From the IMG/VR virus record IMGVR_UViG_3300044637_000586, positions 2,834 to 66,833 of that record: a stretch of 64,000 nt of DNA. The stretch is one strand, 5' to 3'. The position numbers were made by a program, and so were the translations under genes. Of this stretch, positions 7,339 to 63,908 are shown piece by piece (within the stretch, counting starts at the first letter, position 1; each line of letters begins with the position of its first letter). The stretch comes from a virus. The notes below the pieces were generated by a model that worked only from the letters and a program-made list of their open reading frames with translations, was not told where the DNA came from and did not search any database.

Positions 7339-9387
7339 CTATCGAACCACAAGCACGCTTGCTTCGTTGTTTGAAGGGTTGCTATCAGGCAATCCATTCA
7401 CCTCAGTGATACGAACTCTCCAAGTATTTGGAAGTGTACCTTGAGTTGACGTAGGCCATACGGTTCCCATACCCACAGAACGTCCCGGCATGATGCGCTC
7501 TGGACGACTCCAGTTGCTTTGATACTGACCATCGAAACCGGACACTCCCTTGTAGGAGGTGATGACTGATGTCCCCTTGTTTGTAACGCGGTAAGATACA
7601 CGAACTCGGTTAGCATCAAGCCACTCGTATCCTGTAATCTTAACTTCTATATCCAAGGTTTGATCCGGAGGAGTTGGGGTTGTTACCGTGATTGAAGTAA
7701 GGGCGATGTTATCGTTCTCATTTGACTCATTGATTGCGTTTGCAGGATCAATAGTCAGGATGAACTGAGACAGGCCGCTGAGGTTGTTTGGAACGGTGTA
7801 AGGGATCGTAGCTGTAACCGAAGTCTGACCCTTTGGAACGGTCACGGTTCCGGTGTAGAAGTTAAGGATTGCTCCTGCTGGGTTCTTGAATGAAATTACT
7901 ACAGGGGCAAGCAAGTCTGCCGTAATAGGCTTATCAATCATCACAGAGTAAGACACGTTAGCAATAGATCCGGCCTCCGCAGTAGCAGGAGAACTGATCA
8001 CACCATATACATTGACCAAGGTCGGCGTAGGCGGAGGAGGAGTAACGCCACCCGCAAGAGATACCGCCGTGTTAGCGTCGATAATACCAAAGCCAAGCTC
8101 GGCTGACTTGCCGTTGGCGTCGTAGGTATAACCACCAATCTTCCGACATGAGTTCTTGAGGATGTCACGAACCTGCGCCTCTGTAAGCTCTGGGTTCTTT
8201 ACAAGCACCATACCTGCAACAGCAGCCATAGCAGGGCATGAAGCAGACGTACCGCTAAACCCCTTGTATGCCTCTGGGCCGTATCCAACAGCGCCTGTAC
8301 GGTCTGTCGTGTACAACGAAGTACCCGGAGCGGCAGCAAACAGCTTAGGGCCGTAGTTGCTGAATCCTGCGCGGGTGTTGTTTTGCGTACTAGCGCCTAC
8401 AGCCATTACCGACGGGTAAGACGCAGGGAGCTGAGTGAAGTCAGACTGGTATCCGTTTCCAGAGGAAGCAAAGAGTGGAATACCCTTTCCGTTACGGGCG
8501 GTGGTACGAGCGGCGGTCAAGGCGTTGGCGAACACTGGATACCCAGACCCCGTGCTGCCCCAAGACATTGACATGGCCACGCAGTTGGGGTTCTCGATGG
8601 CCTTGTTGACAGCGCGTGTCAAAATTGTATCTGATGTTCTGAAACCACCACCTGACGTGCTACCGAAACCGATGTGCAGGAATTGAACCTTTACAGCATT
8701 GTTTCCGATAGACTTACAGCCGATGTCGTTACCTGTGTTGGCCGCGATCACACCGGAGCAAGACGTTCCGTGGTTCTCAAAGTCAGACACTGGGTTCACA
8801 TCTGCTGCATCTGTCACGCAGTTCCATGAAGATGGGCTGATAGAACCCTGCAAGTCCTCGTGGGTTGTCTCGCAGGCGATGTCTAGGACCGCTACCTCTT
8901 TAACTACACCGGCAGGGAGTTGCGCCCATGCCTCCTGGCACTTCATGTCGGGCAAATGCCAGTGGCCAGAGTAGGCCATCTCCGCGTGTTCGGCCATGGG
9001 TACGATGTAGTCCGGCTCCACGCTAACGAACAGGGCTGTAGACATGATGCTGCCGTAGAATGAATCGAAGCTAACGAAGTCCGGAACCTCAACAAAGAAT
9101 GTCTTGGTTGACTCAAACGAGTCGTTTACCACAATCATGTTGGCCTCAAGGTACTTCTTACCCTCCGCATAGCTCTTAGCTATCACGATAGCAAGACCAG
9201 ACTCAACATGGTCAAGGGACTCCTCAACGCTGTTGGACTGGGATACCTTGGCAGGATCCGGAGTTACCGGCTGCTCGTCACGGAAGACGATGATGCTGAA
9301 CGGCTCGAACACCTGCACCACGTTGGCCTTGGTTTTGTTTTTCTCAAAGGACGCCTTGTCCTTGAACTTAACTGATTTTAAACTCAT
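7339..9387 (-). CDS. S8 subtilisin-like serine protease with C-terminal CARDB/Ig-like domains
   Basis: Triad motifs VAVLD, HGTSCSG, GTSASCP; ASSGN oxyanion motif; IDPANAINESNENDN CARDB motif; start moved to MSLKSV. Confidence 0.9.
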   Translation of the reverse strand: MSLKSVKFKDKASFEKNKTKANVVQVFEPFSIIVFRDEQPVTPDPAKVSQSNSVEESLDHVESGLAIVIAKSYAEGKKYLEANMIVVNDSFESTKTFFVEVPDFVSFDSFYGSIMSTALFVSVEPDYIVPMAEHAEMAYSGHWHLPDMKCQEAWAQLPAGVVKEVAVLDIACETTHEDLQGSISPSSWNCVTDAADVNPVSDFENHGTSCSGVIAANTGNDIGCKSIGNNAVKVQFLHIGFGSTSGGGFRTSDTILTRAVNKAIENPNCVAMSMSWGSTGSGYPVFANALTAARTTARNGKGIPLFASSGNGYQSDFTQLPASYPSVMAVGASTQNNTRAGFSNYGPKLFAAAPGTSLYTTDRTGAVGYGPEAYKGFSGTSASCPAMAAVAGMVLVKNPELTEAQVRDILKNSCRKIGGYTYDANGKSAELGFGIIDANTAVSLAGGVTPPPPTPTLVNVYGVISSPATAEAGSIANVSYSVMIDKPITADLLAPVVISFKNPAGAILNFYTGTVTVPKGQTSVTATIPYTVPNNLSGLSQFILTIDPANAINESNENDNIALTSITVTTPTPPDQTLDIEVKITGYEWLDANRVRVSYRVTNKGTSVITSYKGVSGFDGQYQSNWSRPERIMPGRSVGMGTVWPTSTQGTLPNTWRVRITEVNGLPDSNPSNNEASVLVVR

Positions 9388-9400
9388 TGGTTTTATTGAT

Positions 9401-9988
9401 TTACGTTCTAAATTTAACTGACCTCTTCCACCTCGTGATGTGGGTGTTCTTGGACAGCGGGCGGATCTTGATGTAGACGCCATCCCGTGACCGTGAGTCA
9501 CGCATCCCCTGTTCGTTGGTGTTGCCCTCTATCACTCGAATAGAATGCTCTCCTACGCGGTCTACGATGCCGGTGTGTCCGATCCCTTTGTATCTTGACT
9601 TCTTGAAGTTTGAGTATGTGTATGTGGCAACAAGGACATCGCCATCACGAAAGCTCTGATAAAACCTGCCGTCAGTGTAGATAACATCTTTTCTATTGTA
9701 TGCGCTAGGACTCCAGCCTGTTACTGTGTTCGCGATCCCGCACTCGTCGAGTATGGCGCGAACGAAGAATGAACACCAAGCATAGCCGGGCTTCCACCCA
9801 ACAGCGGCCATCATCTTCTGGAGTTCTTTGTCCCCGAAGGCTTGGTTGTTACCTCCCTTCTCCCTTACCCCTACAAAGGAAGCGGCAGTGGCGCGGACGC
9901 AGTAGCCGTCATTATCAGCCACAGAATAAACAGGAAGCACAAGAAGAGTCCAAAGTAAACACAGATGTATAAAACGATTCTTTGCCAT
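9401..9988 (-). CDS. endolysin, CHAP-family amidase with N-terminal signal segment
   Basis: AWCSFFV, GHTGIV, IEGNT motifs; hydrophobic N-terminus. Confidence 0.85.
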   Translation of the reverse strand: MAKNRFIHLCLLWTLLVLPVYSVADNDGYCVRATAASFVGVREKGGNNQAFGDKELQKMMAAVGWKPGYAWCSFFVRAILDECGIANTVTGWSPSAYNRKDVIYTDGRFYQSFRDGDVLVATYTYSNFKKSRYKGIGHTGIVDRVGEHSIRVIEGNTNEQGMRDSRSRDGVYIKIRPLSKNTHITRWKRSVKFRT

Positions 9989-10263
9989 GCGCTTGATGAG
10001 TATTCTAGTTCCTTCTTGGCCTCCTTTGAGTAGAAGTAGTTCTGCAAACCTCTGAAGTTAAAGAACCCGCCAAGGAACACCACAAAGTTAGCAAAAACCA
10101 TGATAAGTGCAGCAAGAATTACCTGCTGTATGTACTCGGTGGAGATGAGTCCGTCGCCGAAATACTCAGCGCTGTAGGATCCTGCAAGGAGGAATAGGAA
10201 GAATGCAAGGGGGATAGTCCATATCCCGTCGAAGAGTTGTAGTTTGCGTAGTATCTTTTTCAT
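9871..10263 (-). CDS. putative holin (three TM segments)
   Basis: Three hydrophobic helices; overlaps the endolysin start. Confidence 0.6.
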   Translation of the reverse strand: MKKILRKLQLFDGIWTIPLAFFLFLLAGSYSAEYFGDGLISTEYIQQVILAALIMVFANFVVFLGGFFNFRGLQNYFYSKEAKKELEYSSSAWQRIVLYICVYFGLFLCFLFILWLIMTATASAPLPLPL

Positions 10264-23458: not shown

Positions 23459-26400
23459 TTACGGGCAACCGTCAGTTTTGTTTGTTATCACACCCGCTTC
23501 TTGCAGGCGCTTATTAATCTTTGGAATATTGTCGTAAATATACTTCAGTTTTGGGTCACGCCCCAAAATTTCATCAATAGCATCCCTTGCTCCAGGTGTT
23601 TTATCCTTGAGTTTATAGTAGTTGTCAACCAACTCGCTTATGCTTGATTTGACCCCGGATGGTTTCTCTGCCTTAGGAGTTTTAGCTTTTGGCTGAGCCT
23701 TGGGCTGAACTTTGGGAGTTGCCCCAAATTCATCTTGCAGGATCTCGTCGAATTGCTCTTTAAGCTTAGATGTTAGTCCATTGTACCAATCTTGACCTCC
23801 AACTATGTTGTTTACAGCAACCTGTGGGCTTGTGCCGGACTGAATAGCTTGCTCGACAGCATCCGCTGCATTCTCCATCAAAGACTGAATCTCAGCATTT
23901 GTTCTTGGTGTAGGTTCACGCAGCTCGTTGGGGATCGAGTTAGTTCCGTATTCGGCCTGGGTTTCGTTTAGCTTGTTTTGATCAGCATACGACTCATAAT
24001 AACCTTTGACACCTTCGCTATCGCTATTTACAACTACATAGTCAAGAACTCTTATGCTAGCACTTTGCAACGATCTAGTCATCGGCTTTACGCCAGACTT
24101 GTATTGGTCTTGGTTAGAGTAAAATATAACTCCTGCCGCAGTTGCGGATTCACCAATGAAAGAAACGACTTCCTTATAGTCGAATCCTTTTTTGAAGATA
24201 TAATTACCTATTATCTGCCCGCTGTTGTTCAATAGCAACATACCATGTTTAGGTAGCGCGGTAAAACGAGTCTGCATCAAAAATGTGGATACATCCTGTG
24301 ATCCAGATATAGCCACAACCGGTTCGGACAAGATTTGTTGCTCGTCCATCACCTCGACTTTCAGATTCTTGTTGTATTCTTCTTGATACTCCTTATCTAT
24401 ATTGCGTTTTTTAACGATCGATAAGTCGTATGGCCATGTAAGATGAACATACTCTTTTTTGTATGTATCCATGATGACGTGTTCAACCTCGATGTCAAGA
24501 GGCTGAAGCATTTGTACTACGTCTTCAGTAAGTTTAATATCCGCGTTACTTGCCACCAAGGCTCCCGAAGGATGGTTGTGAACTAAATATACTTTTTTAG
24601 ATTTAAACTTTTTCACACCAGACAAAACAAGTCTTGGATCCACTACAGTGGCAGTCGGACCACCCATGCCCAGGAACTGAATGTGGGCCTTTCCGCTCTT
24701 ATCAACGTGTACAGCGAAGGCGTGCTCAACAGACTTGTCTTCAAGTTTACGCATGATGTGTGCTACATCTTCCGCATCCTTGACCTTGACACTTCCGTTA
24801 AACTTGATTTGCTTGTATTTGTTCCATACAGCCTTTACTGTATTACCGACTCCTCCATCTCGTACACTTTGCCCCCGTACTCCATCTGGCTCACTATACG
24901 GTATATTTCCGCTTTCGGATACAATCGGGCCGGCGGCTGTGTCTGTTCTTGTAAGTCCTTCGTTTGGTCCATCGGTTGTTTTGCTTTTTGTGGTTGTTAC
25001 AAATTTTTCAAAAGCCTCTAAATCTTGCTTAGTTCCAAGCTCAAATGTTTCATTCTTGATATAATAGGCTACCTCATCCATTCCGGAGTCTATGCCGACA
25101 ATAGCATCGGCCTTTTCTATTAAATCAACAATGTCTACGTCTTTTTCTACCCATAAATTTTCTATCTCAACATCTCTTCCAGTATTTTTTATGAGACCTT
25201 CATCCATCTCAATATCATAATCTCTTAGGTCGAGCAAATTCTCCGCGTTTACAACAACGGCTTTTCTTAGTGAGCCAAATGTTCTTGTATAATCTTTGTT
25301 GGGAGTGAAATACTTTCCTTTATCCCCCTGCGAACGATACCCCCTGTAAAGTATTTCTTTTACCTTGCTGTTGGGGAAAATGGTGTTTAGATAACTGGCG
25401 TATTGTTGTAGCGTGCCAATCTTTGATAATCCGGGAACAGAATAATAAAAGTCCTTTACATTTTGCCCCTCGTAACCTGCTTGGGGTTCTTGAGCTTCTT
25501 GCGTAGCTCCTTCAGATGGACTAATGCCATAACCGCCTTGTCTTCCTTGCTCAGGTTGTTCACGTTCAATTTCTTTGTAGAATTTTTCATAATCTTCTAT
25601 TGTTTTTACTTTTTCGTCTTCACTTAATGATTCATAGTATTCAATGAGTTCGTCTTCACTCAAGTTGCCCAAATCATTGTTTCTGATGGCATCTCTCATC
25701 TGTGACTCATACTCGTACTTAGCCGCCTCGTCCATGTCGTTAACCAGCTTGTTACGCATCTCGATGAGCTCGTCCTCCATTTGAGACTTGTTCTCAAAAG
25801 AAGCAAGCACGTCAAGAACCTCGTTGACAGCATCCTGTTCGTCAAGCACGATTCCGCCGAGCTCTGGTAAATCTTCAAGGGCGATCAGATCCACGCTTCG
25901 GCCATTGTCGGAAATAAAACCGACTTTCTTTGCAGCGGCTATTTCAGCTTTGCCGGCAAGTTCGGACTGGCTTGTCATTACCTTTCCGCCCCTCAAGAAA
26001 TAAAGAAGAATACTTGCCCTTAGACCAAGTAATGAGTCCTGGGCCATTGACTTCGCTTCCTTCAGATTGTCGTTACGCTCCTTGTTAAATTTGCGGTCAA
26101 CATCTCTTCTGGCTACGACTTTACCGCTTTCCTTGCTTGTCAGACTGATGTTTCCACCTTTTACATTGACAACTGTGAAGCCAAGCCTTTCCGCCTCGTC
26201 CTTAATTTGACTTAACAGATTAGCACCCATTGGCTTTCTGCTTTTGGGTATCTTGTTGTAACGATTCTTTTTGGTGATGAGCTCGTTTACGGCATCATTT
26301 GTAGTCTTTTTTAAATCAGAAGGAGGGTTCTCTAGGGTTTCCTGTATAAGTTTATCGGCATCATCTACAAGTTTCAATGATCCCGCCTCGTACTCCTCCA

Positions 26401-29400
26401 TGCCTTTCTTGACGAGATACGCCTGTATAGCCAAATCCTCCTCAGACATCTCCATGGGGCTTTCGTACCCCATTCTTTTTAAAACCTCGTCATTGATATG
26501 ATCCCATACCTGCTGTTTATCCGCAAGTATTTTCGATCCCTCTTCTATTTCCCTCTGTTCCACAGAAGATGGCTCTTCTTCGGCTTCTTCAATATCTGTT
26601 TCGGGAGCGAAATCCTTTATTAAAAATCCCCCGTTGTTTTCCGCGTTCCAATCACTCGTTGTGCCATCAGGCGATACTAACTTCCAAATAGATTTACTGG
26701 TATCTTCAATGGTGTATTCTTCGTATCTACCATTGTAGTTTCGATACACTATGTCGCCTTTTCCAAAATTACTTAAACGCTTTCCGTCCTTCTCGCTTGT
26801 CCGGTTAAGCATACTGTCAATTCTAAGGGCAAAGCTCGATGAGGCTCTATACGATTTGAATTTTTCAATTGAGTCAACAAATCCCTCTCCCATGTATTGA
26901 ATCTGGTTCTCAAGAAAATCAGCGACTTCCCTGGTGATTCCCTGCTCCTCAACCATCTTGTTAGCTGCGTACTCATACCCATCCCCGACTAGTGCATCAG
27001 GATTGTTCTTCCTAAACGTGTTGTAGTAATCAAACATTTGTTTGAACAGCCCGTAACTCTTTTCGTAATTCAAAGGTGGTACAGCCTCGAATCCCTCGTA
27101 TACATTTGCGAACTCTTCTATCCTGCCTTGCATGGCATTTTCAGTCAAGTTCTTTACTCTTGTGAAACCTTTTTTGCCAGGGCCTAAAACTTCATAATGA
27201 GGAGCCCAATCGTTTTCCCCTTTAATTATTTCACCTACCTTGAATTGATTGGCGCTTTTAAGTTTTTTCTCCTTGACCGGAGCGGGTGCTGATGGCGCTG
27301 TTTCTTCTTCCGTAGCAACTTTTCCCGCCTCTGGAAAGTATGATATTTCTTTGCCGGTTTCGTTCTTGTACTTATTATCAAAAAAGTTTATCTCCTCGCC
27401 TTCTGGAGTGACGACCCTTGTTCCTCCTCTCTTGTTTTCAAAAAACTCGGTTATTGTGTAGCCGTCATTTGTTTTCCAAGTGGCGAGTTTAAGATCATCA
27501 CGTTGAACACCGTTCTCTTTTTCAGCCCTGTCTATAAGAGCGTTTAGCTCTTTGTTCAAAGAAAAAGCCTCTCTTTCTGAAACCCTCTTACCGCCAAATC
27601 CTTTCTTGAACAGATTCTTGATGTTGGCAAATGGCTTTGCTTTTTGGGCCTGTGCGGGTTTTGTTTCCGTAGGTTCCGCCTCCGTTTCAAACAACGAAGC
27701 TATCTTGCCCTTTCGAGTTGGCTTTTCTTCAACGGGTTTTTCAGCTGGCTTTTCCTCGCCTTTAAACAAACCTGCAAGACGTTCCTTACGGCTTGGCTTG
27801 GCTGGCTCGGTCTTTTCAGGCAGGGCTGCCGGCTTGACTTCTTCAAACTCAGTCTCTATTCCCCCAACATCTTTTCTTGATTGATCAAGAGACTTTCGGT
27901 ATGATTCAAAGTCATATCCCGCAAGGCCGGCCGTGGCCTTTTCGTATTGGGCGGCAAGAGGTAATAACTTTTCAGGCAGCTCTTCTGCGTCAACGATCTC
28001 CCCGGTCTTGTTGTCCGTGATGATTATCTCGTTGTCGTAGTCCCAGTCAATGCTAAATCCATTGTTGCCAAACTCCATTTCAACATTAGCCATCTCATCT
28101 GTTATGGGCTTCATGTTGGCCTCGACTTCTTCCGGGGCGATTTCGGGAACTACTTCCTCTTGTGCTTGAAGAACTCCACTTGCTGGAGCCTCTTCTTTGC
28201 TTGGAGCTTCGACAGGTTTGGCTTCGACAGGTTCTTGCCCGACTCCGACTTCACCTGATACCCGGATTTGGTTTTCTTTATCATATTTTAATGAGTTTAG
28301 GTTTTCAAGCAGTTGTTTTGAATTGCCCTGCTGCCCCTCGCGTATCTGCAACGTCCTTCCGTCTTCCGTAGTGATGTTTACCGATACTATCTTGCCGTTC
28401 TTCTCTGCGTAATTATTAAGCGTAGCGTTCTTCCCGGCGTAGTTAATCGTTGCGCCCTTTTCAAGAGTAGGGGTAATAAGCGTGTTCTGATTCTCGATAT
28501 TCATCTCCCCGACGATTCCTTCGTCAGTCTCGATGCCCATCTCACGGATCTTTTCAGCAACTCCCTCTCCCTTTTCAATGATAACGCTTCTTCCGTTGTT
28601 GTATTCTATCTCGTAATCACCGTCCTCGTTGATAAAGAAACTAGCATACTCGTCACCCACCTTTACTCGCTGAGGTGTGGTAGATGTGCCTACCGACTTA
28701 GCATCAATACCATTTTCACCAAGCATCAGGATCTCTTCGCGCTCGTTCTTCAATCTTTCGATTTGAGCGTTAGTGATAGGGTCTTTAAGACCGCCTTCCT
28801 CCAGGGTTCTTATCTGTTGGGTTATACCGAATGCCCGAGCTTGCTTGGGGCGTGGGAGGTTTTTCCAGTTGGGATGAGCTGATAAAGCTTGGAAGTCTTC
28901 GCGAGGACCTTTCAAGTCCTGTTTCACCTTAGCCACGTCTGCGCTATTGGTTGATGCCGCGATTATGCCATCCGCATTTTCAGCGGCCTCAAGCATAACG
29001 TCTTCCGCAAAGTTGGAGGCTCCTACCGGTCTTCTAAAGAAATTACCCGCCTTACCGCCTATCAAACCACTCAGTGCGGCATCCTTATACCCACGGCCAG
29101 AATTTAAGTCCTTAAAGTATTCGGTTTCACCCAGGTAGTTGATAATCTCTTTGGTGGCATTATCAACCTTTTGCTGAGTAACTTCTTCGCCCGCTTCTTT
29201 CAATCCGGACTTGAGATATGATGCAGAAGATTCCGCAAAAGAATCCCTGAATGCTTGCGATAAACTTTTACCGTTTGCCAAATCATTCAGTACAGACTTT
29301 CTGAAAACGCTAGGCTCAAAGTATTTAACGTCAGGTATCAATCCTTCAGCCAATGACACGGCGATAGCGGTTGCTGTAGAAGCTGCCGCAGCTTGCCTTG

Positions 29401-31309
29401 GAGACATCTTGTGGGTATTGATGGCTTCCTCGTATGCGTCAGCTTCTGTTACAAGCCATGACGTTGCGAACGTAGCCCCATACTGAGCCATCTTAGATGC
29501 CCCTGCAAACGTGCCGCCTAAGGCGAATGTGGCAAGTGAAGCCAGCGCGTTACCTCCTAGCGAGGTCAAGTATTGGATGTTTGATTCTGATTCAATCGTC
29601 GGGAAGTCTACCCTCTTTTCCATGCGGTAGTTTTCCAGTCCGTCATAAATCTCGTCAAGGAAGTTGTATTCAGTATTCCCGGTCACAAGATCTTCAACTA
29701 TCTTGGGTATTTCCAAGACGTTGATGGCCATGTTTCCGATCCCGGCGGCAAACGTATTTGCAAGTTCGCCCGGGGCGTATATCATCTTCATCATCGGAGA
29801 AGCGTTGTCCCACCTCTGCTTTCCAGCCTCCTGCTCCTTCTCGATTCGATCCTTTAATGTCTTGTATTCGGAATAGTAATTTATGTTATCCTGGTTTAAA
29901 GCACCAAGTACCTTGAGTGATAAAGCGGACTGACCAAGAGAGTTATACGCAGTCTTAGCCTGATCAAGCTTAGCTACGTTCTCGTCGGTCATCCTTGAAC
30001 GAACCTTGAGGTCTTCGTAGTCAGATTGTAACTTGTTGCTACGCTCTTGTAGCTTGCTGAAATCTGGGTAGTTCGCCCTGTATGCGTTGTATTCGTCCTT
30101 ATACTCTTGGCTGATTCTATTGAACTCAGCCTCGTAGTCCTCACGCTTCATGGTGGAGGACTTCGCATTCAGATCCTGGATGGCCTTATTAAATTCAGCA
30201 TCTCTTTGATTCCATGAAGCGAACGACTCCTTTGCCTTTTGCTCGAGTCTCTTGTATTCGGCATCTATCGCTGAACGCTCTTGATTCAACGCGATAACCC
30301 CGGCGTCAAACAGGCGGGAGTCAATTGAAGCCTCTATCTTAGAATATTCGTTGATTCCTGACTTTTGCTTGTCGTAGTTCCTCTTGATTGCGGCCATCTT
30401 CAACTGAATAGCCCTGGTCTCCATAGAGTTTAACCACTCTTCGTTCTTGGCGCTTCTGTCTGTGCTTGACTTTAGTTGAGAGTATTTATTAAACTCAGCC
30501 TCACCTATTTCGGGTCTCGTCTTCTTCATGTAGTCGAAATAGTCGTCCATCAAAGCGGAAACCATCTCGCCTCTCTTGCCTTCTTTCTCAATAGTGGTTC
30601 CGTTGGGAACCTCTCTTTCACCAAGAGCAATTTGAAGATCCGTTAAATCAGTCGGGGCAACAGTAAAGTATGGGAAAAACTTATCCGACTTGTTGCCGGC
30701 ATTGTTCATGTAGCTGTCTATCTCCTCGCCAAACTGAGCTTCGTATTCATTGGCTATCCTCTTATCTATATCCTCTTTTGTCAGAATGTTTACACCCTGA
30801 TCCTCAAGAGCCTTTTGACTTTTCTCAAACGCGGCCTGGTTGACCTTTTTAATAGCTTCCTCTGATGCGAAATCAGTTCCCTTTTCTTTGGATACAGAAG
30901 CCAACGGGGATTGAACGAATTTACCCTGCTCTATTTTCTTCTCGACTTCTTTTATAGCCTTAATAGGCTGAGGAATCTGCGCCTGTGTTGTCTCAGACGG
31001 CATCTCCTCTCTACGAAACGTAATGTCCTGCTGCTTCTTTTGGGGCTCTTTCTTCACCCCTTTCATTACCGGCTCCCCGCTAACGAGGGTTTCGGTCATT
31101 ACTTTCTGGCCAAAACTCGGCGCAGAAGGCTTTGTAGGCTGCCCTTGAGGCGAACCAGAAACGGGTTGCCCACCCCCTTTTTTTTTTAACCCAGAGATAA
31201 ACGCGTCGCGAAACTTGCGAAGATCATCTTTGCTTGCGCCAGTGCCTGCGTATTTAACAAGCCCTTGTTTTAGCTTTTCTTTTTCGTCCGGAGTTAATCC
31301 TACTGGCAT
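23459..31309 (-). CDS. giant polyvalent ejection/cargo protein with ART-like and RadC/JAB domains
   Basis: 2616 aa; LYRG..YFT..E ART-like segment; VHNHPSG...SNAD JAB motif; Gly/Ala hydrophobic segments near aa 580-660. Confidence 0.75.
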   Translation of the reverse strand: MPVGLTPDEKEKLKQGLVKYAGTGASKDDLRKFRDAFISGLKKKGGGQPVSGSPQGQPTKPSAPSFGQKVMTETLVSGEPVMKGVKKEPQKKQQDITFRREEMPSETTQAQIPQPIKAIKEVEKKIEQGKFVQSPLASVSKEKGTDFASEEAIKKVNQAAFEKSQKALEDQGVNILTKEDIDKRIANEYEAQFGEEIDSYMNNAGNKSDKFFPYFTVAPTDLTDLQIALGEREVPNGTTIEKEGKRGEMVSALMDDYFDYMKKTRPEIGEAEFNKYSQLKSSTDRSAKNEEWLNSMETRAIQLKMAAIKRNYDKQKSGINEYSKIEASIDSRLFDAGVIALNQERSAIDAEYKRLEQKAKESFASWNQRDAEFNKAIQDLNAKSSTMKREDYEAEFNRISQEYKDEYNAYRANYPDFSKLQERSNKLQSDYEDLKVRSRMTDENVAKLDQAKTAYNSLGQSALSLKVLGALNQDNINYYSEYKTLKDRIEKEQEAGKQRWDNASPMMKMIYAPGELANTFAAGIGNMAINVLEIPKIVEDLVTGNTEYNFLDEIYDGLENYRMEKRVDFPTIESESNIQYLTSLGGNALASLATFALGGTFAGASKMAQYGATFATSWLVTEADAYEEAINTHKMSPRQAAAASTATAIAVSLAEGLIPDVKYFEPSVFRKSVLNDLANGKSLSQAFRDSFAESSASYLKSGLKEAGEEVTQQKVDNATKEIINYLGETEYFKDLNSGRGYKDAALSGLIGGKAGNFFRRPVGASNFAEDVMLEAAENADGIIAASTNSADVAKVKQDLKGPREDFQALSAHPNWKNLPRPKQARAFGITQQIRTLEEGGLKDPITNAQIERLKNEREEILMLGENGIDAKSVGTSTTPQRVKVGDEYASFFINEDGDYEIEYNNGRSVIIEKGEGVAEKIREMGIETDEGIVGEMNIENQNTLITPTLEKGATINYAGKNATLNNYAEKNGKIVSVNITTEDGRTLQIREGQQGNSKQLLENLNSLKYDKENQIRVSGEVGVGQEPVEAKPVEAPSKEEAPASGVLQAQEEVVPEIAPEEVEANMKPITDEMANVEMEFGNNGFSIDWDYDNEIIITDNKTGEIVDAEELPEKLLPLAAQYEKATAGLAGYDFESYRKSLDQSRKDVGGIETEFEEVKPAALPEKTEPAKPSRKERLAGLFKGEEKPAEKPVEEKPTRKGKIASLFETEAEPTETKPAQAQKAKPFANIKNLFKKGFGGKRVSEREAFSLNKELNALIDRAEKENGVQRDDLKLATWKTNDGYTITEFFENKRGGTRVVTPEGEEINFFDNKYKNETGKEISYFPEAGKVATEEETAPSAPAPVKEKKLKSANQFKVGEIIKGENDWAPHYEVLGPGKKGFTRVKNLTENAMQGRIEEFANVYEGFEAVPPLNYEKSYGLFKQMFDYYNTFRKNNPDALVGDGYEYAANKMVEEQGITREVADFLENQIQYMGEGFVDSIEKFKSYRASSSFALRIDSMLNRTSEKDGKRLSNFGKGDIVYRNYNGRYEEYTIEDTSKSIWKLVSPDGTTSDWNAENNGGFLIKDFAPETDIEEAEEEPSSVEQREIEEGSKILADKQQVWDHINDEVLKRMGYESPMEMSEEDLAIQAYLVKKGMEEYEAGSLKLVDDADKLIQETLENPPSDLKKTTNDAVNELITKKNRYNKIPKSRKPMGANLLSQIKDEAERLGFTVVNVKGGNISLTSKESGKVVARRDVDRKFNKERNDNLKEAKSMAQDSLLGLRASILLYFLRGGKVMTSQSELAGKAEIAAAKKVGFISDNGRSVDLIALEDLPELGGIVLDEQDAVNEVLDVLASFENKSQMEDELIEMRNKLVNDMDEAAKYEYESQMRDAIRNNDLGNLSEDELIEYYESLSEDEKVKTIEDYEKFYKEIEREQPEQGRQGGYGISPSEGATQEAQEPQAGYEGQNVKDFYYSVPGLSKIGTLQQYASYLNTIFPNSKVKEILYRGYRSQGDKGKYFTPNKDYTRTFGSLRKAVVVNAENLLDLRDYDIEMDEGLIKNTGRDVEIENLWVEKDVDIVDLIEKADAIVGIDSGMDEVAYYIKNETFELGTKQDLEAFEKFVTTTKSKTTDGPNEGLTRTDTAAGPIVSESGNIPYSEPDGVRGQSVRDGGVGNTVKAVWNKYKQIKFNGSVKVKDAEDVAHIMRKLEDKSVEHAFAVHVDKSGKAHIQFLGMGGPTATVVDPRLVLSGVKKFKSKKVYLVHNHPSGALVASNADIKLTEDVVQMLQPLDIEVEHVIMDTYKKEYVHLTWPYDLSIVKKRNIDKEYQEEYNKNLKVEVMDEQQILSEPVVAISGSQDVSTFLMQTRFTALPKHGMLLLNNSGQIIGNYIFKKGFDYKEVVSFIGESATAAGVIFYSNQDQYKSGVKPMTRSLQSASIRVLDYVVVNSDSEGVKGYYESYADQNKLNETQAEYGTNSIPNELREPTPRTNAEIQSLMENAADAVEQAIQSGTSPQVAVNNIVGGQDWYNGLTSKLKEQFDEILQDEFGATPKVQPKAQPKAKTPKAEKPSGVKSSISELVDNYYKLKDKTPGARDAIDEILGRDPKLKYIYDNIPKINKRLQEAGVITNKTDGCP
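24835..24972 (-). CDS. nested +1-frame ORF, 45 aa
   Basis: MDQTKDLQEQTQPPARLYPKAEIYRIVSQMEYGGKVYEMEESVIQ; A-rich leader ACAAAAAGCAAAACAACCG-ATG. Confidence 0.45.
   Translation of the reverse strand: MDQTKDLQEQTQPPARLYPKAEIYRIVSQMEYGGKVYEMEESVIQ
25456..25590 (-). CDS. nested +1-frame ORF, 44 aa, basic helical
   Basis: MKNSTKKLNVNNLSKEDKAVMALVHLKELRKKLKNPKQVTRGKM; leader AAAAACAATAGAAGATT-ATG. Confidence 0.5.
   Translation of the reverse strand: MKNSTKKLNVNNLSKEDKAVMALVHLKELRKKLKNPKQVTRGKM
28150..28284 (-). CDS. nested +1-frame ORF, 44 aa, small basic phage protein
   Basis: MIKKTKSGYQVKSESGKNLSKPNLSKLQAKKRLQQVEFFKHKRK; leader AAACCTAAACTCATTAAAAT-ATG; resembles a stand-alone small phage protein family as I recall it. 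Confidence 0.7.
   Translation of the reverse strand: MIKKTKSGYQVKSESGKNLSKPNLSKLQAKKRLQQVEFFKHKRK
31173..31187 (-). other. A10G5 slippery run (candidate frameshift or transcriptional slippage site)
   Basis: TTA AAA AAA AAA GGG GG at codons 41-46 of the giant gene. Confidence 0.5.
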
Positions 31310-61846: not shown

Positions 61847-62110
61847 TTAGCAATCCCACTTTTGAAGAGCTAATGCCTTTCTTGTGGGCTTGCCATTTGG
61901 TTTCTTCATGGGGCCAGGCATACCACCCATTCTAGCACAGAAGGACTTCCTCCTGGCAGCGCTCTTGGGAGACTTCTTTGCTTGCTTGGCTGATACCGGT
62001 GCTTTTAATGTACCTCCAGTTTCGCGTTTGTAAGACGCACGTCCTTTGGCGTTCAGTCCGCCGGACTTGGACTTACCCTCTGATCTTTGCCATGCAGCTG
62101 TTCGTGCCAT
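61847..62110 (-). CDS. small basic phage protein (DUF6321-like)
   Basis: AWQRSEGK..SGGLNAKGRASY...RRKSFCARM...KWDC. Confidence 0.7.
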   Translation of the reverse strand: MARTAAWQRSEGKSKSGGLNAKGRASYKRETGGTLKAPVSAKQAKKSPKSAARRKSFCARMGGMPGPMKKPNGKPTRKALALQKWDC

Positions 62111-62111
62111 G

Positions 62112-62267
62112 TTATTTATTTTTCTTTTTAGCTGTCAACTTAGACTTGATAAAGTCCTTCAACTTAGGAGCGCCAGGAGCACCCGGCTTCCTCATCTTCT
62201 CGCCTGATCCAGCAGCAATGCGCTTGCGTTTGGCGTTGATGTTTGCATATAGTCCTGCTTTTGCCAT
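62112..62267 (-). CDS. 51-aa basic protein (not in ORF track)
   Basis: MAKAGLYANINAKRKRIAAGSGEKMRKPGAPGAP...; TAATG coupling. Confidence 0.7.
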   Translation of the reverse strand: MAKAGLYANINAKRKRIAAGSGEKMRKPGAPGAPKLKDFIKSKLTAKKKNK

Positions 62268-63034
62268 TATTTCTTTTTTGGAAATTGTTTTAAATATTCT
62301 CTTCTCACTCTTGCAGAGTTACTGCTTTTCGATGGAGTATACGTTCTGCCTGTTTCAACCCCACGACTACCCATGTTTGGATTTTCTTTCGCTATATCCC
62401 TCGCTCTATCCTTTTGACTCTTAGCGCCCCTATAATGAAGTGATTTTTTGTCGATTGAAGGTCTCGGCTTTCGATCCATCCTAGCCTTTCTGGCATTTTT
62501 GACTTCGTCAACATCAAGTACCTCACGTTTCATTTTTTGAACGGTCCCTTTTTTGTCTCTATAAGCATTTCTATCCGGCTTATTTCTTTTTGTATGCATA
62601 GTCCCTCCGGGCTTTCTAAATTCCTTGCCCGTTTCGTGATCCTTGCTAGACCTGGAGGTATAAACCGTCTCTGGAGTTCTTTCAAAAACAGTTGCCGTAG
62701 GACGAGTAACAGTAATTTGACTTTTCTGCAACGGTCTTTTCTCTGTTTTTAGAGACCCTTTTTTCCTAAATGTGTTCTTCGTTTGATAAGTAGAAACATT
62801 GTCCATGTCCGCTCTGCGAGAACTAGGACCAGCAAACGTAGTAGACTTAGTTTTAGCAACCCCAGACTTATCCGAACGACGAATCTTTCTTGTGGTTTCC
62901 ATGCCAGTCTGAGCATTGCCTTTGGTACGCTCAACAACACGCGTTTTAGCGCCGGTAGAACCTTTAGATTTGGTTACCGTTTTGGTTGCGCCACCTAGCG
63001 TCTGGCGTGTGCGAGTCTTTGATCCCGGCTTCAT
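62267..63034 (-). CDS. highly basic Lys/Arg/Thr-rich protein
   Basis: 255 aa, TAATG coupling on both sides. Confidence 0.65.
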   Translation of the reverse strand: MKPGSKTRTRQTLGGATKTVTKSKGSTGAKTRVVERTKGNAQTGMETTRKIRRSDKSGVAKTKSTTFAGPSSRRADMDNVSTYQTKNTFRKKGSLKTEKRPLQKSQITVTRPTATVFERTPETVYTSRSSKDHETGKEFRKPGGTMHTKRNKPDRNAYRDKKGTVQKMKREVLDVDEVKNARKARMDRKPRPSIDKKSLHYRGAKSQKDRARDIAKENPNMGSRGVETGRTYTPSKSSNSARVRREYLKQFPKKK

Positions 63035-63561
63035 TACTTCTTACGTTTTGGTGGGTTAGATGCTTTGAGCTTCGGTTTCTGTTTAGCCTGTTGTTTGGCC
63101 TCTGCTTTCTTGGACATAGCGATACCGCGATCAATTCGTTTTTCACTACGCCTATCGACGCCTGGACGCTTCATTTCACGAGCGGTCTTTTCTTTGTACT
63201 GCCAGTTACGCCCGCGAGAAACCAACTTTGTTCCTGCCCTTTCTTCCTTAGGAACAGACTTAAAGCCTTCAAGCTCCTTGTAAGTGCTTACGTGCCTCTT
63301 TGGCTTTAAGAATTTGCCGCTTTTAGGACCTACACTGCCTGCGTGGTAGTAGGACTTGCCCTCTTCAGGGTGATAAACCTTTTCAAACATAGGCTCCTCG
63401 CGCTTCATAGCGTCGTTGAAGTCTCTTGGTTTTCCACTCTCTTTCCAGTTGCGCTTCATGTTGTACTTGCGCTCCGGTGTGTTAGCCAGATTCGGTGGAA
63501 GAGACTTCTTGAACTCCTTGTATTTAGGTTTAGGCTTATTCATTCCTGTCCTTTTGTTCAC
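63034..63561 (-). CDS. basic protein with a central globular domain
   Basis: 175 aa, coupled. Confidence 0.65.
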   Translation of the reverse strand: MNKRTGMNKPKPKYKEFKKSLPPNLANTPERKYNMKRNWKESGKPRDFNDAMKREEPMFEKVYHPEEGKSYYHAGSVGPKSGKFLKPKRHVSTYKELEGFKSVPKEERAGTKLVSRGRNWQYKEKTAREMKRPGVDRRSEKRIDRGIAMSKKAEAKQQAKQKPKLKASNPPKRKK

Positions 63562-63908
63562 CCTTTTTTACTCGGGGTTTTTTTAGCAGACGCACTAACC
63601 GACTTACCAGAAGACTTCGCAAGCTGGAACTTAGCCCCTGATGCAGCCTTCAAGTAATTAGCCTTCTCCAACTTACGCTTGGCACTTTTCTCCTGACGAG
63701 AAGCACGAGCATAGAGCTGGTTAGCCTTATCAGAAGCGTTACGACCGAAACGATCGCCAGCCATGTTTTGACCTTCCTTTGTTTTATCAAACTTGCGAAT
63801 AGCTTCAGCTTTTGCCCAGTTGCTCTTAGCCTTGTCCATTTTCTTTACAGCACGCGCCTCCACTCGGCCAGCACGACGTAAAAGTCGATTGTTAGATGGT
63901 GTTTTCAT
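63558..63908 (-). CDS. highly basic Lys/Arg/Ala-rich protein
   Basis: 116 aa, coupled. Confidence 0.65.
   Translation of the reverse strand: MKTPSNNRLLRRAGRVEARAVKKMDKAKSNWAKAEAIRKFDKTKEGQNMAGDRFGRNASDKANQLYARASRQEKSAKRKLEKANYLKAASGAKFQLAKSSGKSVSASAKKTPSKKG

What the first reader, a model, noticed from the sequence alone, without database searches (positions are those of the whole stretch)
24835..28284. Three hidden ~44-aa genes overprinted in the +1 frame of the giant ejection-protein gene
Seen: three ORFs below the track's 60-aa cutoff lie inside the 2616-aa gene, at 28284-28150 (44 aa), 25590-25456 (44 aa) and 24972-24835 (45 aa). All are on the same strand and in the +1 frame, each with an A-rich Bacteroidota-type start context. 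Each coincides with a stretch where the host frame reads as an E/G/Q/P/S-rich linker while the +1 frame reads like a normal protein. Two of them bracket the ART-like domain, and the second of these directly precedes the JAB domain. Inference: the linkers of this polyvalent protein are repurposed to encode small partner proteins. These could be chaperones or inhibitors that keep adjacent toxic enzymatic domains inactive during virion assembly and travel with the domain when modules are shuffled.
Basis: partly seen in the sequence, partly recalled or inferred. Interest (0 to 1): 0.85.

Follow-up and report, generated by a model that had tools for sequence, protein, structure and literature searches.

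The report
Hidden gene inside giant phage gene
Of three short reading frames hidden inside a giant phage virion-protein gene, one is a genuine, widely conserved 44-residue gene, a second shows signs of being one, and the third looks like a by-product of sequence composition.

Summary
All three +1-frame ORFs exist as stated. As a count they are chance-level: 5 such ATG ORFs of 44 aa or more against 2.8-3.7 expected.

ORF 28284-28150 is a real nested gene. It has 263 small homologues and relatives in 80 viral contigs. In 58 of 81 rows it lies inside an open frame of 935-3573 codons. In 20 rows it stands alone. Its own frame is far more conserved than the giant frame (80% against 47%, 946 of 946 pairs). 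Stop-creating T is absent at 0 of 534 risk sites. It folds confidently as a hairpin plus helix (pLDDT 90.9). The same module occurs fused to portal, Mu F and prohead-protease proteins. The giant ORF seems to have engulfed an older gene.

ORF 25590-25456 shows a small but replicated +1-frame selection signal: 8 synonymous against 2 non-synonymous changes, with 1 against 10 in the host frame.

ORF 24972-24835 shows none.

The chaperone/inhibitor idea is untested. A memory-based note on this window (e1-6176630) had guessed the capture.

The parts
23459..31309 (-). Giant 2616-aa virion-protein ORF (host gene). Its N-terminal roughly 1000 aa are shared with some relatives. The middle is mosaic. The last roughly 150 aa are conserved.
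   Evidence: Pfam finds only RadC/JAB. tblastn against 80 loci shows mosaic conservation: 16 loci cover aa 500-850, 1-3 loci cover aa 1200-2450, 15 loci cover aa 2450-2616.
28150..28284 (-). Nested gene 1 (P0002). It is 44 aa with net charge about +12, lies in the +1 frame of the giant ORF and overlaps host aa 1009-1053. This is a real gene.
   Evidence: AlphaFold2 pLDDT is 90.9.
28285..28309 (-). A-rich, G-poor, weakly structured leader of nested gene 1, lying inside the giant ORF. It is the inferred internal translation-initiation region.
   Evidence: In 44 unique embedded contexts the A fraction at -15..-1 is 0.585 against a host-gene background of 0.357. Mean MFE of -25..+24 is -1.99 against -7.05 kcal/mol, and 40 of 44 contexts are among the least structured fifth of their own host gene.
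25456..25590 (-). Candidate nested gene 2 (P0003). It is 44 aa, in the +1 frame, overlaps host aa 1907-1951 and is predicted as a single basic helix. The first 34 codons carry the signal.
24835..24972 (-). +1-frame ORF 3 (P0004), 45 aa, overlapping host aa 2113-2158. It is open in 4 of 4 related sequences but shows no coding constraint. Judged not to be a gene.
24974..25456 (-).
   Evidence: A lake-metagenome contig replaces 24983-25454 by 457 other letters. L003 carries a different module after the ORF 2 linker. L090 has none, so the two linkers abut. No Pfam or PDB match.
24467..24781 (-). RadC-like JAB domain of the giant protein (aa 2177-2281).
   Evidence: Pfam PF04002, E 2.7e-17. PHROG 10276, E 4e-9.
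26773..26982 (-). Used as a chance control.
   Evidence: Against L003, 8 of 11 substitutions are at the host wobble position and +1 identity is below host identity (87% against 96%).
25696..25833 (-). Used as a chance control.
   Evidence: It is interrupted by a stop in L003.

Best explanation
The window is a complete 66.8-kb lake-water phage genome. It is distantly related, by its portal protein, to Cellulophaga and Flavobacterium podoviruses.

Its 2616-aa virion-protein gene contains, in the +1 frame at 28284-28150, a genuine independent gene. The product is a 44-residue, very basic mini-protein predicted to fold as a beta-hairpin (with a further bridging strand) packed on one helix.

Shown: the mini-protein belongs to a large uncharacterised phage family. 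The family occurs in three arrangements:
- as a free-standing gene, often beside terminase, portal or capsid genes;
- fused in frame to proteins that sit inside capsids (portal C-terminus, Mu F-type polyvalent protein, prohead proteases) and to several enzymes;
- nested out of frame in giant ORFs, as here and in at least 57 other viral contigs.
In the nested form the small frame is under strong purifying selection. The giant frame crossing it is a fast-evolving hydrophilic linker that selection merely keeps free of stops.

Inferred:
- The giant gene arose when flanking virion-protein genes fused by reading across an older small gene in another frame.
- The small protein is made by internal initiation at its conserved start codon, which sits in an A-rich, unstructured stretch (or behind a Shine-Dalgarno-like motif in 6 of 44 contexts).
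- It works inside the capsid, most likely binding packaged DNA or the portal region together with the cargo proteins.

The second ORF (25590-25456) is probably also translated, odds about 0.55. It is a short basic helix that travels with the domain upstream of it, and its role is unknown.

The third ORF (24972-24835) is most likely only an open frame left by a linker poor in hydrophobic residues.
For: ORF 1, homologues:
- tblastn finds a free-standing unannotated ORF in Aeromonas phage 1233 (E 1e-7, 53.5% over residues 1-43). A weaker match lies at the N-terminus of a 'prohead protease'.
- 263 of 264 candidate small proteins match at E 0.01 or better, up to 89% identity, with 14 invariant columns among 30 aligned.
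- 195 IMG/VR stretches encode a relative, and the best 80 were kept.

ORF 1, arrangement (81 rows = 80 loci plus the window):
- 58 rows are nested in open frames of 935-3573 codons, always the same frame relation. 3 are ambiguous. 20 stand alone with 1-9 stops in that frame.
- The third frame has at least one stop in 58 of 58 nested rows.
- The aligned first codon is ATG in 71, GTG in 7 and TTG in 1. In the other 2 an ATG lies one codon upstream.

ORF 1, selection:
- T at the small gene's wobble position before AA/AG/GA occurs at 0 of 534 sites in 44 unique nested sequences. It occurs at 51 of 581 safe sites there and at 55 of 223 risk sites in stand-alone sequences.
- Mean pairwise identity is 80.2% in the small frame against 46.5% in the host frame. 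The small frame is higher in 946 of 946 pairs. Diversity per site at small-gene codon positions 1, 2 and 3 is 0.216, 0.141 and 0.443.

ORF 1, start region: A-rich and weakly structured. SD-like motifs occur in 6 of 44 contexts.

ORF 1, fold: pLDDT 90.9. BFVD matches reach TM 0.8-0.9, including free 43-68-aa proteins and XkdF or prohead-protease fusions.

ORF 1, fusions: 169 longer proteins match at E 0.001 or better. Among those read, the module lies at a portal C-terminus, at the N-terminus of Mu F, InPase+PcfJ and S49 proteins, and internally after InPase and SLT.

ORF 1, context: terminase, portal, capsid or connector genes lie beside the stand-alone gene in 5 of 11 loci examined.

ORF 2:
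- Only 2 of 1993 +1-frame 35-codon windows of the window-L003 alignment have 5 or more substitutions that are all +1-synonymous. Both sit at this ORF's start.
- In L018 against L087, 12 of the 13 such windows (3 or more substitutions) lie on the orthologous ORF.
- Over three close pairs the +1 frame has 8 synonymous and 2 non-synonymous changes. The host frame has 1 and 10. P is 1.1e-4.
- One called 50-aa protein is 69% identical.

ORF 3: non-synonymous in +1 in 9 of 10 to 16 of 17 changes per pair. No homologue was found.
Against: - No translation data exist. No RNA run was listed, and RNA could not separate the frames anyway.
- The function is inferred from fusions and neighbourhoods only. 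5 of the 11 stand-alone loci examined gave no informative neighbour and one gave an aminotransferase. The module is also fused to enzymes with no known capsid link, such as DNA ligase and NUDIX.
- Fold matches to solved DNA-binding three-strand-plus-helix domains are weak (Z 3.4-3.6).
- The nested class was defined by lack of stops, so the 0 of 534 figure is partly by construction. The nested sequences are also related to each other.
- One origin or several was not tested.
- ORF 2: counts are small (10 substitutions). The third pair gave 0 synonymous and 2 non-synonymous +1 changes. The ORF is cut to 37 codons in L003 and 39 in L090. Its openness is expected from host composition (P 0.56). Its PHROG hit was not reproduced by relatives. 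A lone-helix prediction proves nothing.
Confidence: 0.8

Rival explanations
1. All three ORFs are chance open frames. They arise because hydrophilic linkers lack the T-in-second-position codons needed to make +1-frame stops. None is translated into a functional product.
For: - The count of +1 ORFs is at chance level.
- Only host codons with T at position 2 can give +1 stops. The spans of ORF 2 and ORF 3 are at the 0.6th and 10th percentile for such codons.
- P(open given the host protein) is 0.56 for ORF 2.
- ORF 3 shows no +1 constraint.
- The two unlisted +1 ORFs behave as chance ORFs.
Against: It fails for ORF 1. That ORF has hundreds of homologues, many of them free-standing, strong frame-specific conservation and a confident fold. 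For ORF 2 it does not explain why host-synonymous changes are missing (0 seen, about 5.5 and 3.5 expected from the gene-wide rates) while host-changing ones accumulate.
Confidence: 0.03
2. ORF 1 is not initiated on its own. Ribosomes translating the giant gene shift +1 just before it. This makes a truncated isoform (N-terminal roughly 1008 aa plus the mini-domain), as tail-chaperone G/GT genes do.
For: The same module occurs fused in frame at the C-terminus of a portal-like protein and inside other long proteins. A C-terminally tagged isoform is therefore biologically plausible.
Against: - A start codon is kept at or one codon before the aligned first residue in 81 of 81 rows.
- An in-frame stop lies 0-4 codons upstream in many loci, directly before the ATG in L017, L035, L063 and L066. 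This leaves no room for a shift site.
- No conserved slippery motif is evident in the contexts printed.
- SD-like motifs at the right spacing occur in 6 of 44 contexts.
- The start region is unusually unstructured.
Confidence: 0.06
3. One reading: the small ORFs encode chaperones or inhibitors that keep the neighbouring toxic enzymatic domains (ART-like, JAB) inactive during assembly and move with them when modules shuffle.
For: ORF 2 is present in 6 of 6 DNA sequences that carry the domain upstream of it. Module exchange points fall at its end.
Against: - ORF 1 lies about 900 codons from the ART/JAB part and occurs between unrelated flanks and in phages without such domains.
- ORF 2 stays put when the 'ART-like' module is replaced or absent.
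- ORF 3, the one beside JAB, shows no coding constraint.
- The ART identity is unverified.
Confidence: 0.08

Closest known systems
Rz1 embedded in the +1 frame of Rz (two-component spanin genes of phage lambda), with the embedded, overlapped and separated spanin architectures
   Same: A short complete gene lies wholly inside a longer same-strand gene in the +1 frame, with both reading frames kept. In other phages the same two genes occur in other arrangements. The Rz/Rz1 arrangement is recalled. For PMC6139136 I saw only the search listing and the start of the abstract, which hold the architecture terms.
   Different: No sequence, fold or functional relation. Here the nested gene is the ancient, strongly conserved partner and the outer frame is a disposable linker. 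The outer gene is a 2616-aa virion protein, not a lysis gene. A third arrangement, in-frame fusion, also exists.
Overprinted genes of small viruses (phiX174 E within D, B within A; recalled) as reviewed under 'overprinting' (PMC8227390, search listing and start of abstract only)
   Same: Two proteins are read from one stretch of DNA in different frames. One frame is conserved and the other fast-evolving.
   Different: In classical overprinting the new frame is the short nested one. For ORF 1 the comparative data point the other way: a long gene extended across an older short gene. ORF 2, if real, would fit the classical direction.
Polyvalent proteins of phages and conjugative elements (Iyer et al. 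2017, PMC5512222; passages found with 'find' were read)
   Same: The host gene is a giant, mosaic, module-shuffling phage protein with a RadC/JAB domain. Relatives of the mini-protein are fused to Mu F, InPase and PcfJ domains, which are typical of these proteins.
   Different: In the main text of that paper, 'overlapping' and 'frameshift' occur 0 times. The hits for 'nested' and 'embedded' concern a hairpin structure and peptidase domains, not genes. Supplements could not be read. Apart from RadC, no polyvalent-protein domain family was recognised in this protein by Pfam.
DUF2188 (PF09954) and NMB1088/ATU0232-type small beta-plus-helix proteins
   Same: Small hairpin-plus-helix domains of similar size. 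2 of 30 family members give weak DUF2188 hits, best E 0.0053. Foldseek and VIA list 3bid and 2k7i with TMq 0.45-0.47 and Z 3.1-3.8.
   Different: The window's protein has no Pfam or NCBIfam match. All structural scores are below any level that shows kinship.

Membership tests
Same-strand embedded overlapping gene (Rz1-in-Rz type) | A complete ORF with its own start and stop lies inside a longer ORF on the same strand in another frame | tested here: met
   All three ORFs meet this.
Same-strand embedded overlapping gene (Rz1-in-Rz type) | Purifying selection acts on the embedded frame | tested here: met
   ORF 1: 80.2% against 46.5% identity, 946 of 946 pairs. ORF 2: 8 synonymous against 2 non-synonymous, P 1.1e-4, small counts. 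ORF 3: not met, 9 of 10 to 16 of 17 changes non-synonymous.
Same-strand embedded overlapping gene (Rz1-in-Rz type) | The outer frame is kept open across the embedded gene by selection | tested here: met
   ORF 1: 58 of 81 rows are open within 935-3573-codon frames, against 1-9 stops in the 20 stand-alone rows. T occurs at 0 of 534 risk sites. The third frame is closed in 58 of 58.
Same-strand embedded overlapping gene (Rz1-in-Rz type) | The embedded gene is shown to be translated independently | not testable with these tools
   Only indirect signs exist: conserved start codons, an A-rich and unstructured leader, and SD-like motifs in 6 of 44 contexts.
Pfam DUF2188 (PF09954) | Score above Pfam's gathering threshold | tested here: not met
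   P0002 has no match. 2 of 30 relatives give sub-threshold hits, best E 0.0053.
PHROG 26216 (unknown function) | Significant match to the family profile over most of its length | tested here: inconclusive
   E 0.0082, 17.5 bits, residues 4-41 on profile positions 2-40 of 56.
Polyvalent protein (host gene) | Several unrelated effector or enzymatic domains in one phage polypeptide, commonly with Mu F or another packaging-linked domain | tested here: inconclusive
   Only RadC/JAB is recognised. Mosaic module exchange is seen. There is no Mu F match in this protein.
Three-stranded sheet plus helix DNA-binding domains (AP2/GCC-box, lambda Int N-terminal) | Structural superposition well above background | tested here: inconclusive
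   Z 3.4-3.6 over 42-43 residues at rmsd 2.5-2.8. No chain reached Z 5 among 48,161.

The most novel reading that the evidence does not exclude
The 44-residue module is a general capsid-interior tag or adaptor of tailed phages. It binds packaged DNA or the portal and thereby recruits whatever it is attached to.

In one large group of lake and other environmental phages, the cargo gene was built by fusing virion genes straight across the adaptor gene. One stretch of DNA then yields both the free adaptor and the linker of the giant cargo protein that it helps to load.

The fast-evolving linkers of such giant proteins are also nurseries in which new short genes, such as ORF 2, arise by overprinting and then move with their module.
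Probability: 0.2. Interest if true: 0.85.

Novelty: new variant of a known kind. Interest (0 to 1): 0.72.

Why it matters
Gene callers do not report genes nested in longer same-strand genes. This conserved gene is therefore invisible in every genome where it is nested (at least 58 rows here).

The case shows an uncommon route of gene evolution: a long gene extended across an older short gene in another frame and kept both. It also identifies an uncharacterised mini-protein family, seen in 80 IMG/VR contigs, an Aeromonas phage and (more weakly) enterobacterial phages. The family's repeated fusion to portal, Mu F and prohead-protease proteins makes a role in capsid assembly or cargo loading directly testable.

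It further gives a clean design for testing internal initiation without a Shine-Dalgarno sequence in Bacteroidota-type phages.

The replicated signal on the second ORF suggests that linkers of giant polyvalent proteins deserve a systematic scan for dual coding.

Tried and rejected
- blastn of 24700-28400 against cultured phages found no match.
The contigs of the called small proteins, including P0246, could not be inspected.
- A profile of the family against PDB sequences found nothing at E up to 10.
- Foldseek against PDB found nothing at E 0.001 or better. VIA-align against 48,161 chains found no Z of 5 or more.
- ESM Atlas gave only unnamed 'hypothetical protein' clusters for P0002 and no usable hit for P0003.
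- NCBIfam found nothing.
- A single-protein scan of IMG/VR with the ART/linker region found only the L003 contig.
- Scans with the ORF 2 alignment found only that contig in IMG/VR and none in JGI metagenomes.
- The PHROG 18514 and HTH_Tnp_4 hints for P0003 were not reproduced. P0246 and the L018 and L016 ORFs gave no match to them, and the L003 copy matched PHROG 18514 only at E 0.068. I dropped them.
- No RNA holder was listed among the 24 sequencing runs.
- Laying four contig runs printed only 40 of 271 differing places. It could not be used to count variants inside ORF 1 or ORF 2.
- A co-fold of ORF 2 with the domain upstream of it gave 'no answer'. It counts neither way.
- The identical 158-nt tract over ORF 1 between the window and L003 is only the fourth longest such tract, so I do not use it as evidence.
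- Literature: searches, and the term search in PMC5512222, found no description of this family or of genes nested in polyvalent-protein genes. Supplements were closed, and subscription journals are not covered.
- I considered that the giant ORF is really two genes. I rejected this because stops are avoided across the overlap.

Full report
THE OBSERVATION

The 2616-aa ORF runs from 31309 to 23459 on the minus strand.

The +2 frame has none of 40 aa or more.

As a count this is not remarkable. Five ORFs of 44 aa or more were seen. In 1000 shuffles each, the means were 3.74 (global codon order), 3.39 (local codon order) and 2.77 (synonymous codons) (P 0.30, 0.23, 0.12).

A +1-frame stop can arise only at a host codon with T in second position. 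The spans of the second and third ORFs are at the 0.6th and 10th percentile of the gene for such codons. Given the host protein, the second ORF is open with probability 0.56 and the third with 0.08.

So the ORFs are real as ORFs, but their existence alone says nothing. Each had to be tested on its own.

ORF 1 (28284-28150) IS A REAL GENE

Homologues:
- tblastn against cultured phages gave a full-length match (E 1e-7, 53.5% identity) to an unannotated stretch of Aeromonas phage 1233. There it is a free-standing small ORF with the same beginning and end.
- Weaker matches fall on the N-termini of 'prohead protease' and 'coat protein' genes of enterobacterial phages.
- In the 5.8-billion-protein collection, 263 of 264 candidates of 24-77 aa match at E 0.01 or better, up to 89% identity. 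None has a Pfam domain or a name other than 'hypothetical protein'. Thirty of them align with 14 invariant columns.
- IMG/VR holds 195 stretches that encode a relative. I analysed the best 80, plus the window.

Arrangement, in 81 rows:
- In 58 rows the small gene lies inside an open frame of 935-3573 codons, always with the same frame relation.
- 3 rows are ambiguous, with an open run of 119-191 codons.
- In 20 rows the gene stands alone, with 1-9 stops in that frame across it.
- The third frame has at least one stop in 58 of 58 nested rows (mean 3.4), so the openness is frame-specific.
- The aligned first codon is ATG in 71 rows, GTG in 7 and TTG in 1. In the remaining 2 an ATG lies one codon upstream.

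BOTH FRAMES ARE UNDER SELECTION, BUT IN DIFFERENT WAYS

Among 44 unique nested sequences, mean pairwise identity is 80.2% in the small frame and 46.5% in the giant frame. The small frame is the more conserved in 946 of 946 pairs. Variation is concentrated at the small gene's wobble position (0.443 per site, against 0.216 and 0.141).

A stop in the giant frame would need T at that wobble position followed by AA, AG or GA.
- Such T occurs at 0 of 534 risk sites in nested sequences.
- It occurs at 51 of 581 safe sites in the same sequences.
- It occurs at 55 of 223 risk sites in stand-alone sequences.
The nested class was defined by lack of stops and its members are related, so this is not an independent probability. 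With stand-alone T usage, only about 3% of sequences would be stop-free (my arithmetic: 0.75 raised to 12.1). Observed are 44 of 64 unique sequences.

The giant reading frame is therefore kept open, and the giant ORF is not two genes misjoined. Its residues over the overlap are free to change.

The flanks differ widely between loci. N-terminal parts are 27-35% identical or not detectably related. The modules after the overlap are shuffled. Contigs from lake metagenomes match the window only within about 28146-28257 and then run on unlike it (loose ends).

The simplest history is that an older small gene was engulfed when flanking virion genes fused by reading across it. I did not test whether this happened once or several times.

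HOW ORF 1 IS PROBABLY EXPRESSED (INFERRED)

The 15 bases before the nested start are 58.5% A, against 35.7% in the same host genes. 26 of 44 contexts are in the top tenth of their own gene for A content. G is nearly absent at several positions.

The stretch from -25 to +24 folds with a mean of -1.99 kcal/mol, against -7.05 for the host-gene background. 40 of 44 contexts are among the least structured fifth.

That A-rich, Shine-Dalgarno-less starts are typical of Bacteroidota is recalled, not tested here.

Six of 44 contexts instead carry an SD-like motif inside the giant ORF. Stand-alone copies often have GGAGG.

A programmed +1 shift from the giant frame is unlikely. The start codon is conserved, and an in-frame stop lies 0-4 codons upstream in many loci, directly before the ATG in four.

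WHAT THE ORF 1 PROTEIN IS

It has 12 Lys and 2 Arg against 2 Glu (sequence).

AlphaFold2 with 30 relatives gives pLDDT 90.9: strands 2-5 and 8-12, bridging residues, and a helix at 26-42.

No Pfam, NCBIfam or PDB-sequence match exists. PHROG 26216 matches weakly. DUF2188 is hit weakly by 2 of 30 relatives. Solved-structure matches are all weak.

Predicted viral structures match well (TM 0.8-0.9, 30-60% identity). They include free 43-68-aa proteins and domains of XkdF-type and prohead-protease proteins.

A search among longer proteins found 169 at E 0.001 or better. In the ten I read, the module lies:
- at the C-terminus of a portal-like protein (just below Pfam's cut-off);
- at the N-terminus of a 1868-aa Mu F protein, of an InPase+PcfJ protein and of an S49 protease;
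- internally after InPase and SLT domains.
Other matching proteins carry DUF2213, DNA ligase/DUF5661 and NUDIX domains.

Stand-alone copies lie directly before or after the large terminase, between a portal-sized gene and the capsid gene, or near a connector gene in 5 of 11 loci examined. One locus has a Hoc-like domain and a reverse transcriptase, one has an aminotransferase, and four gave no match.

The common thread is proteins that sit inside proheads and capsids. I therefore infer a capsid-interior role, binding DNA or the portal region. This is inference only.

ORF 2 (25590-25456) IS A PLAUSIBLE SECOND GENE

It has no family match that holds up and no cultured-phage match. One 50-aa called protein in 1.84 billion representatives is 69% identical over residues 1-39.

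The domain upstream of it occurs in five other DNA sequences: L003, L016, L018, L087 and L090. All carry an ATG-started +1 ORF at the same junction, of 37, 51, 46, 46 and 39 codons.

An unbiased scan of the window-L003 alignment covered 1993 windows of 35 codons per frame. Only two +1-frame windows had 5 or more substitutions that were all +1-synonymous. Both are at this ORF's start.

In the independent pair L018-L087, 12 of the 13 such windows (3 or more substitutions, of 813) lie on the orthologous ORF.

Over the first 34 codons and three close pairs, the +1 frame has 8 synonymous and 2 non-synonymous changes. The host frame has 1 and 10. With 20.9% of possible changes synonymous, P is 1.1e-4.

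Against this reading:
- The third pair alone gave 0 synonymous and 2 non-synonymous changes.
- The C-terminus is not conserved.
- The ORF's openness is expected by composition.
- The predicted single helix is not evidence.
I put the odds that it is a functional coding frame at about 0.55.

It moves with its upstream domain, not with the 'ART-like' module. That module is replaced in L003, replaced in a lake contig exactly between 24982 and 25455, and absent in L090.

ORF 3 (24972-24835) IS NOT SUPPORTED

It is open with the same start and stop in 4 of 4 related sequences. But in all six pairs nearly every change is non-synonymous in the +1 frame, from 9 of 10 to 16 of 17. That is more than in the host frame.

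It has no homologue among small proteins or cultured phages.

The two unlisted +1 ORFs behave as chance ORFs too. Substitutions are mostly at the host wobble position, and there is a stop in L003 in one of them.

CONTEXT

The window is 64,000 of the 66,833 bases of an IMG/VR record that CheckV rates complete. It holds one copy of the family.

PHROGs identify the large terminase, the portal and a virion structural protein upstream of the giant gene. The portal is 22-23% identical to those of Cellulophaga and Flavobacterium podoviruses.

Runs that hold the DNA are lake-water metagenomes.

COMPARISON AND NOVELTY

The arrangement works like the Rz1-in-Rz embedded gene pair and like overprinted genes of small viruses. 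It is unrelated to them in sequence and function.

For ORF 1 the direction is unusual: the long frame was laid over the old short gene.

I found no description of this family, or of genes nested in polyvalent-protein genes. Supplements were closed, and subscription journals are not searched.

An earlier memory-based note of this scan on the same window (e1-6176630) guessed that a whole gene had been captured. The tests here support that guess.

I class the finding as a new variant of a known kind.

Noticed in passing
window 61847-63908, minus strand: A run of very basic (K/R-rich) predicted proteins of 87, 51, 255, 175 and 116 aa lies near the end of the genome. These may be DNA-binding or internal virion proteins. 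None resembles the nested mini-protein: the family has only one copy in the genome.
   Followed up: partly
window 24983-25454: In one lake-metagenome contig this segment is replaced by 457 other letters. The break points lie at the stop of ORF 2 and 10 bases before the start of ORF 3. This is module exchange at the linkers of the giant gene.
   Followed up: partly
window 27310-27647: Contigs of two runs skip 338 bases here, with 11 other letters between. This is another module-sized deletion or replacement variant inside the giant gene.
   Followed up: no
L090:1444-3879: This is a mosaic giant gene. Its upstream domain is 96.8% identical to L016, joined directly to a linker-plus-JAB part like L003 (79%). 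The ORF 2-like and ORF 3-like frames lie back to back, and the junction falls inside the ORF 2-like frame.
   Followed up: partly
protein P0171 (1138 aa): It carries one full copy of the mini-domain and then two further copies of only its C-terminal helix motif, spaced about 100-110 residues apart. The helix end of the module may act as a repeatable unit.
   Followed up: no
L062 and L065, around 9802-10138 and 9203-9539: Here the open frame that covers the small gene begins only 66 codons upstream of it and runs on for 1339 codons. This may be an intermediate state in which the small gene overlaps the start of the downstream giant gene.
   Followed up: no
L064:8512-9549: A reverse-transcriptase gene (PHROG 1423, E 7e-59) lies about 450 bases upstream of a stand-alone copy of the small gene. 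A protein with a Hoc-like domain lies further upstream.
   Followed up: no
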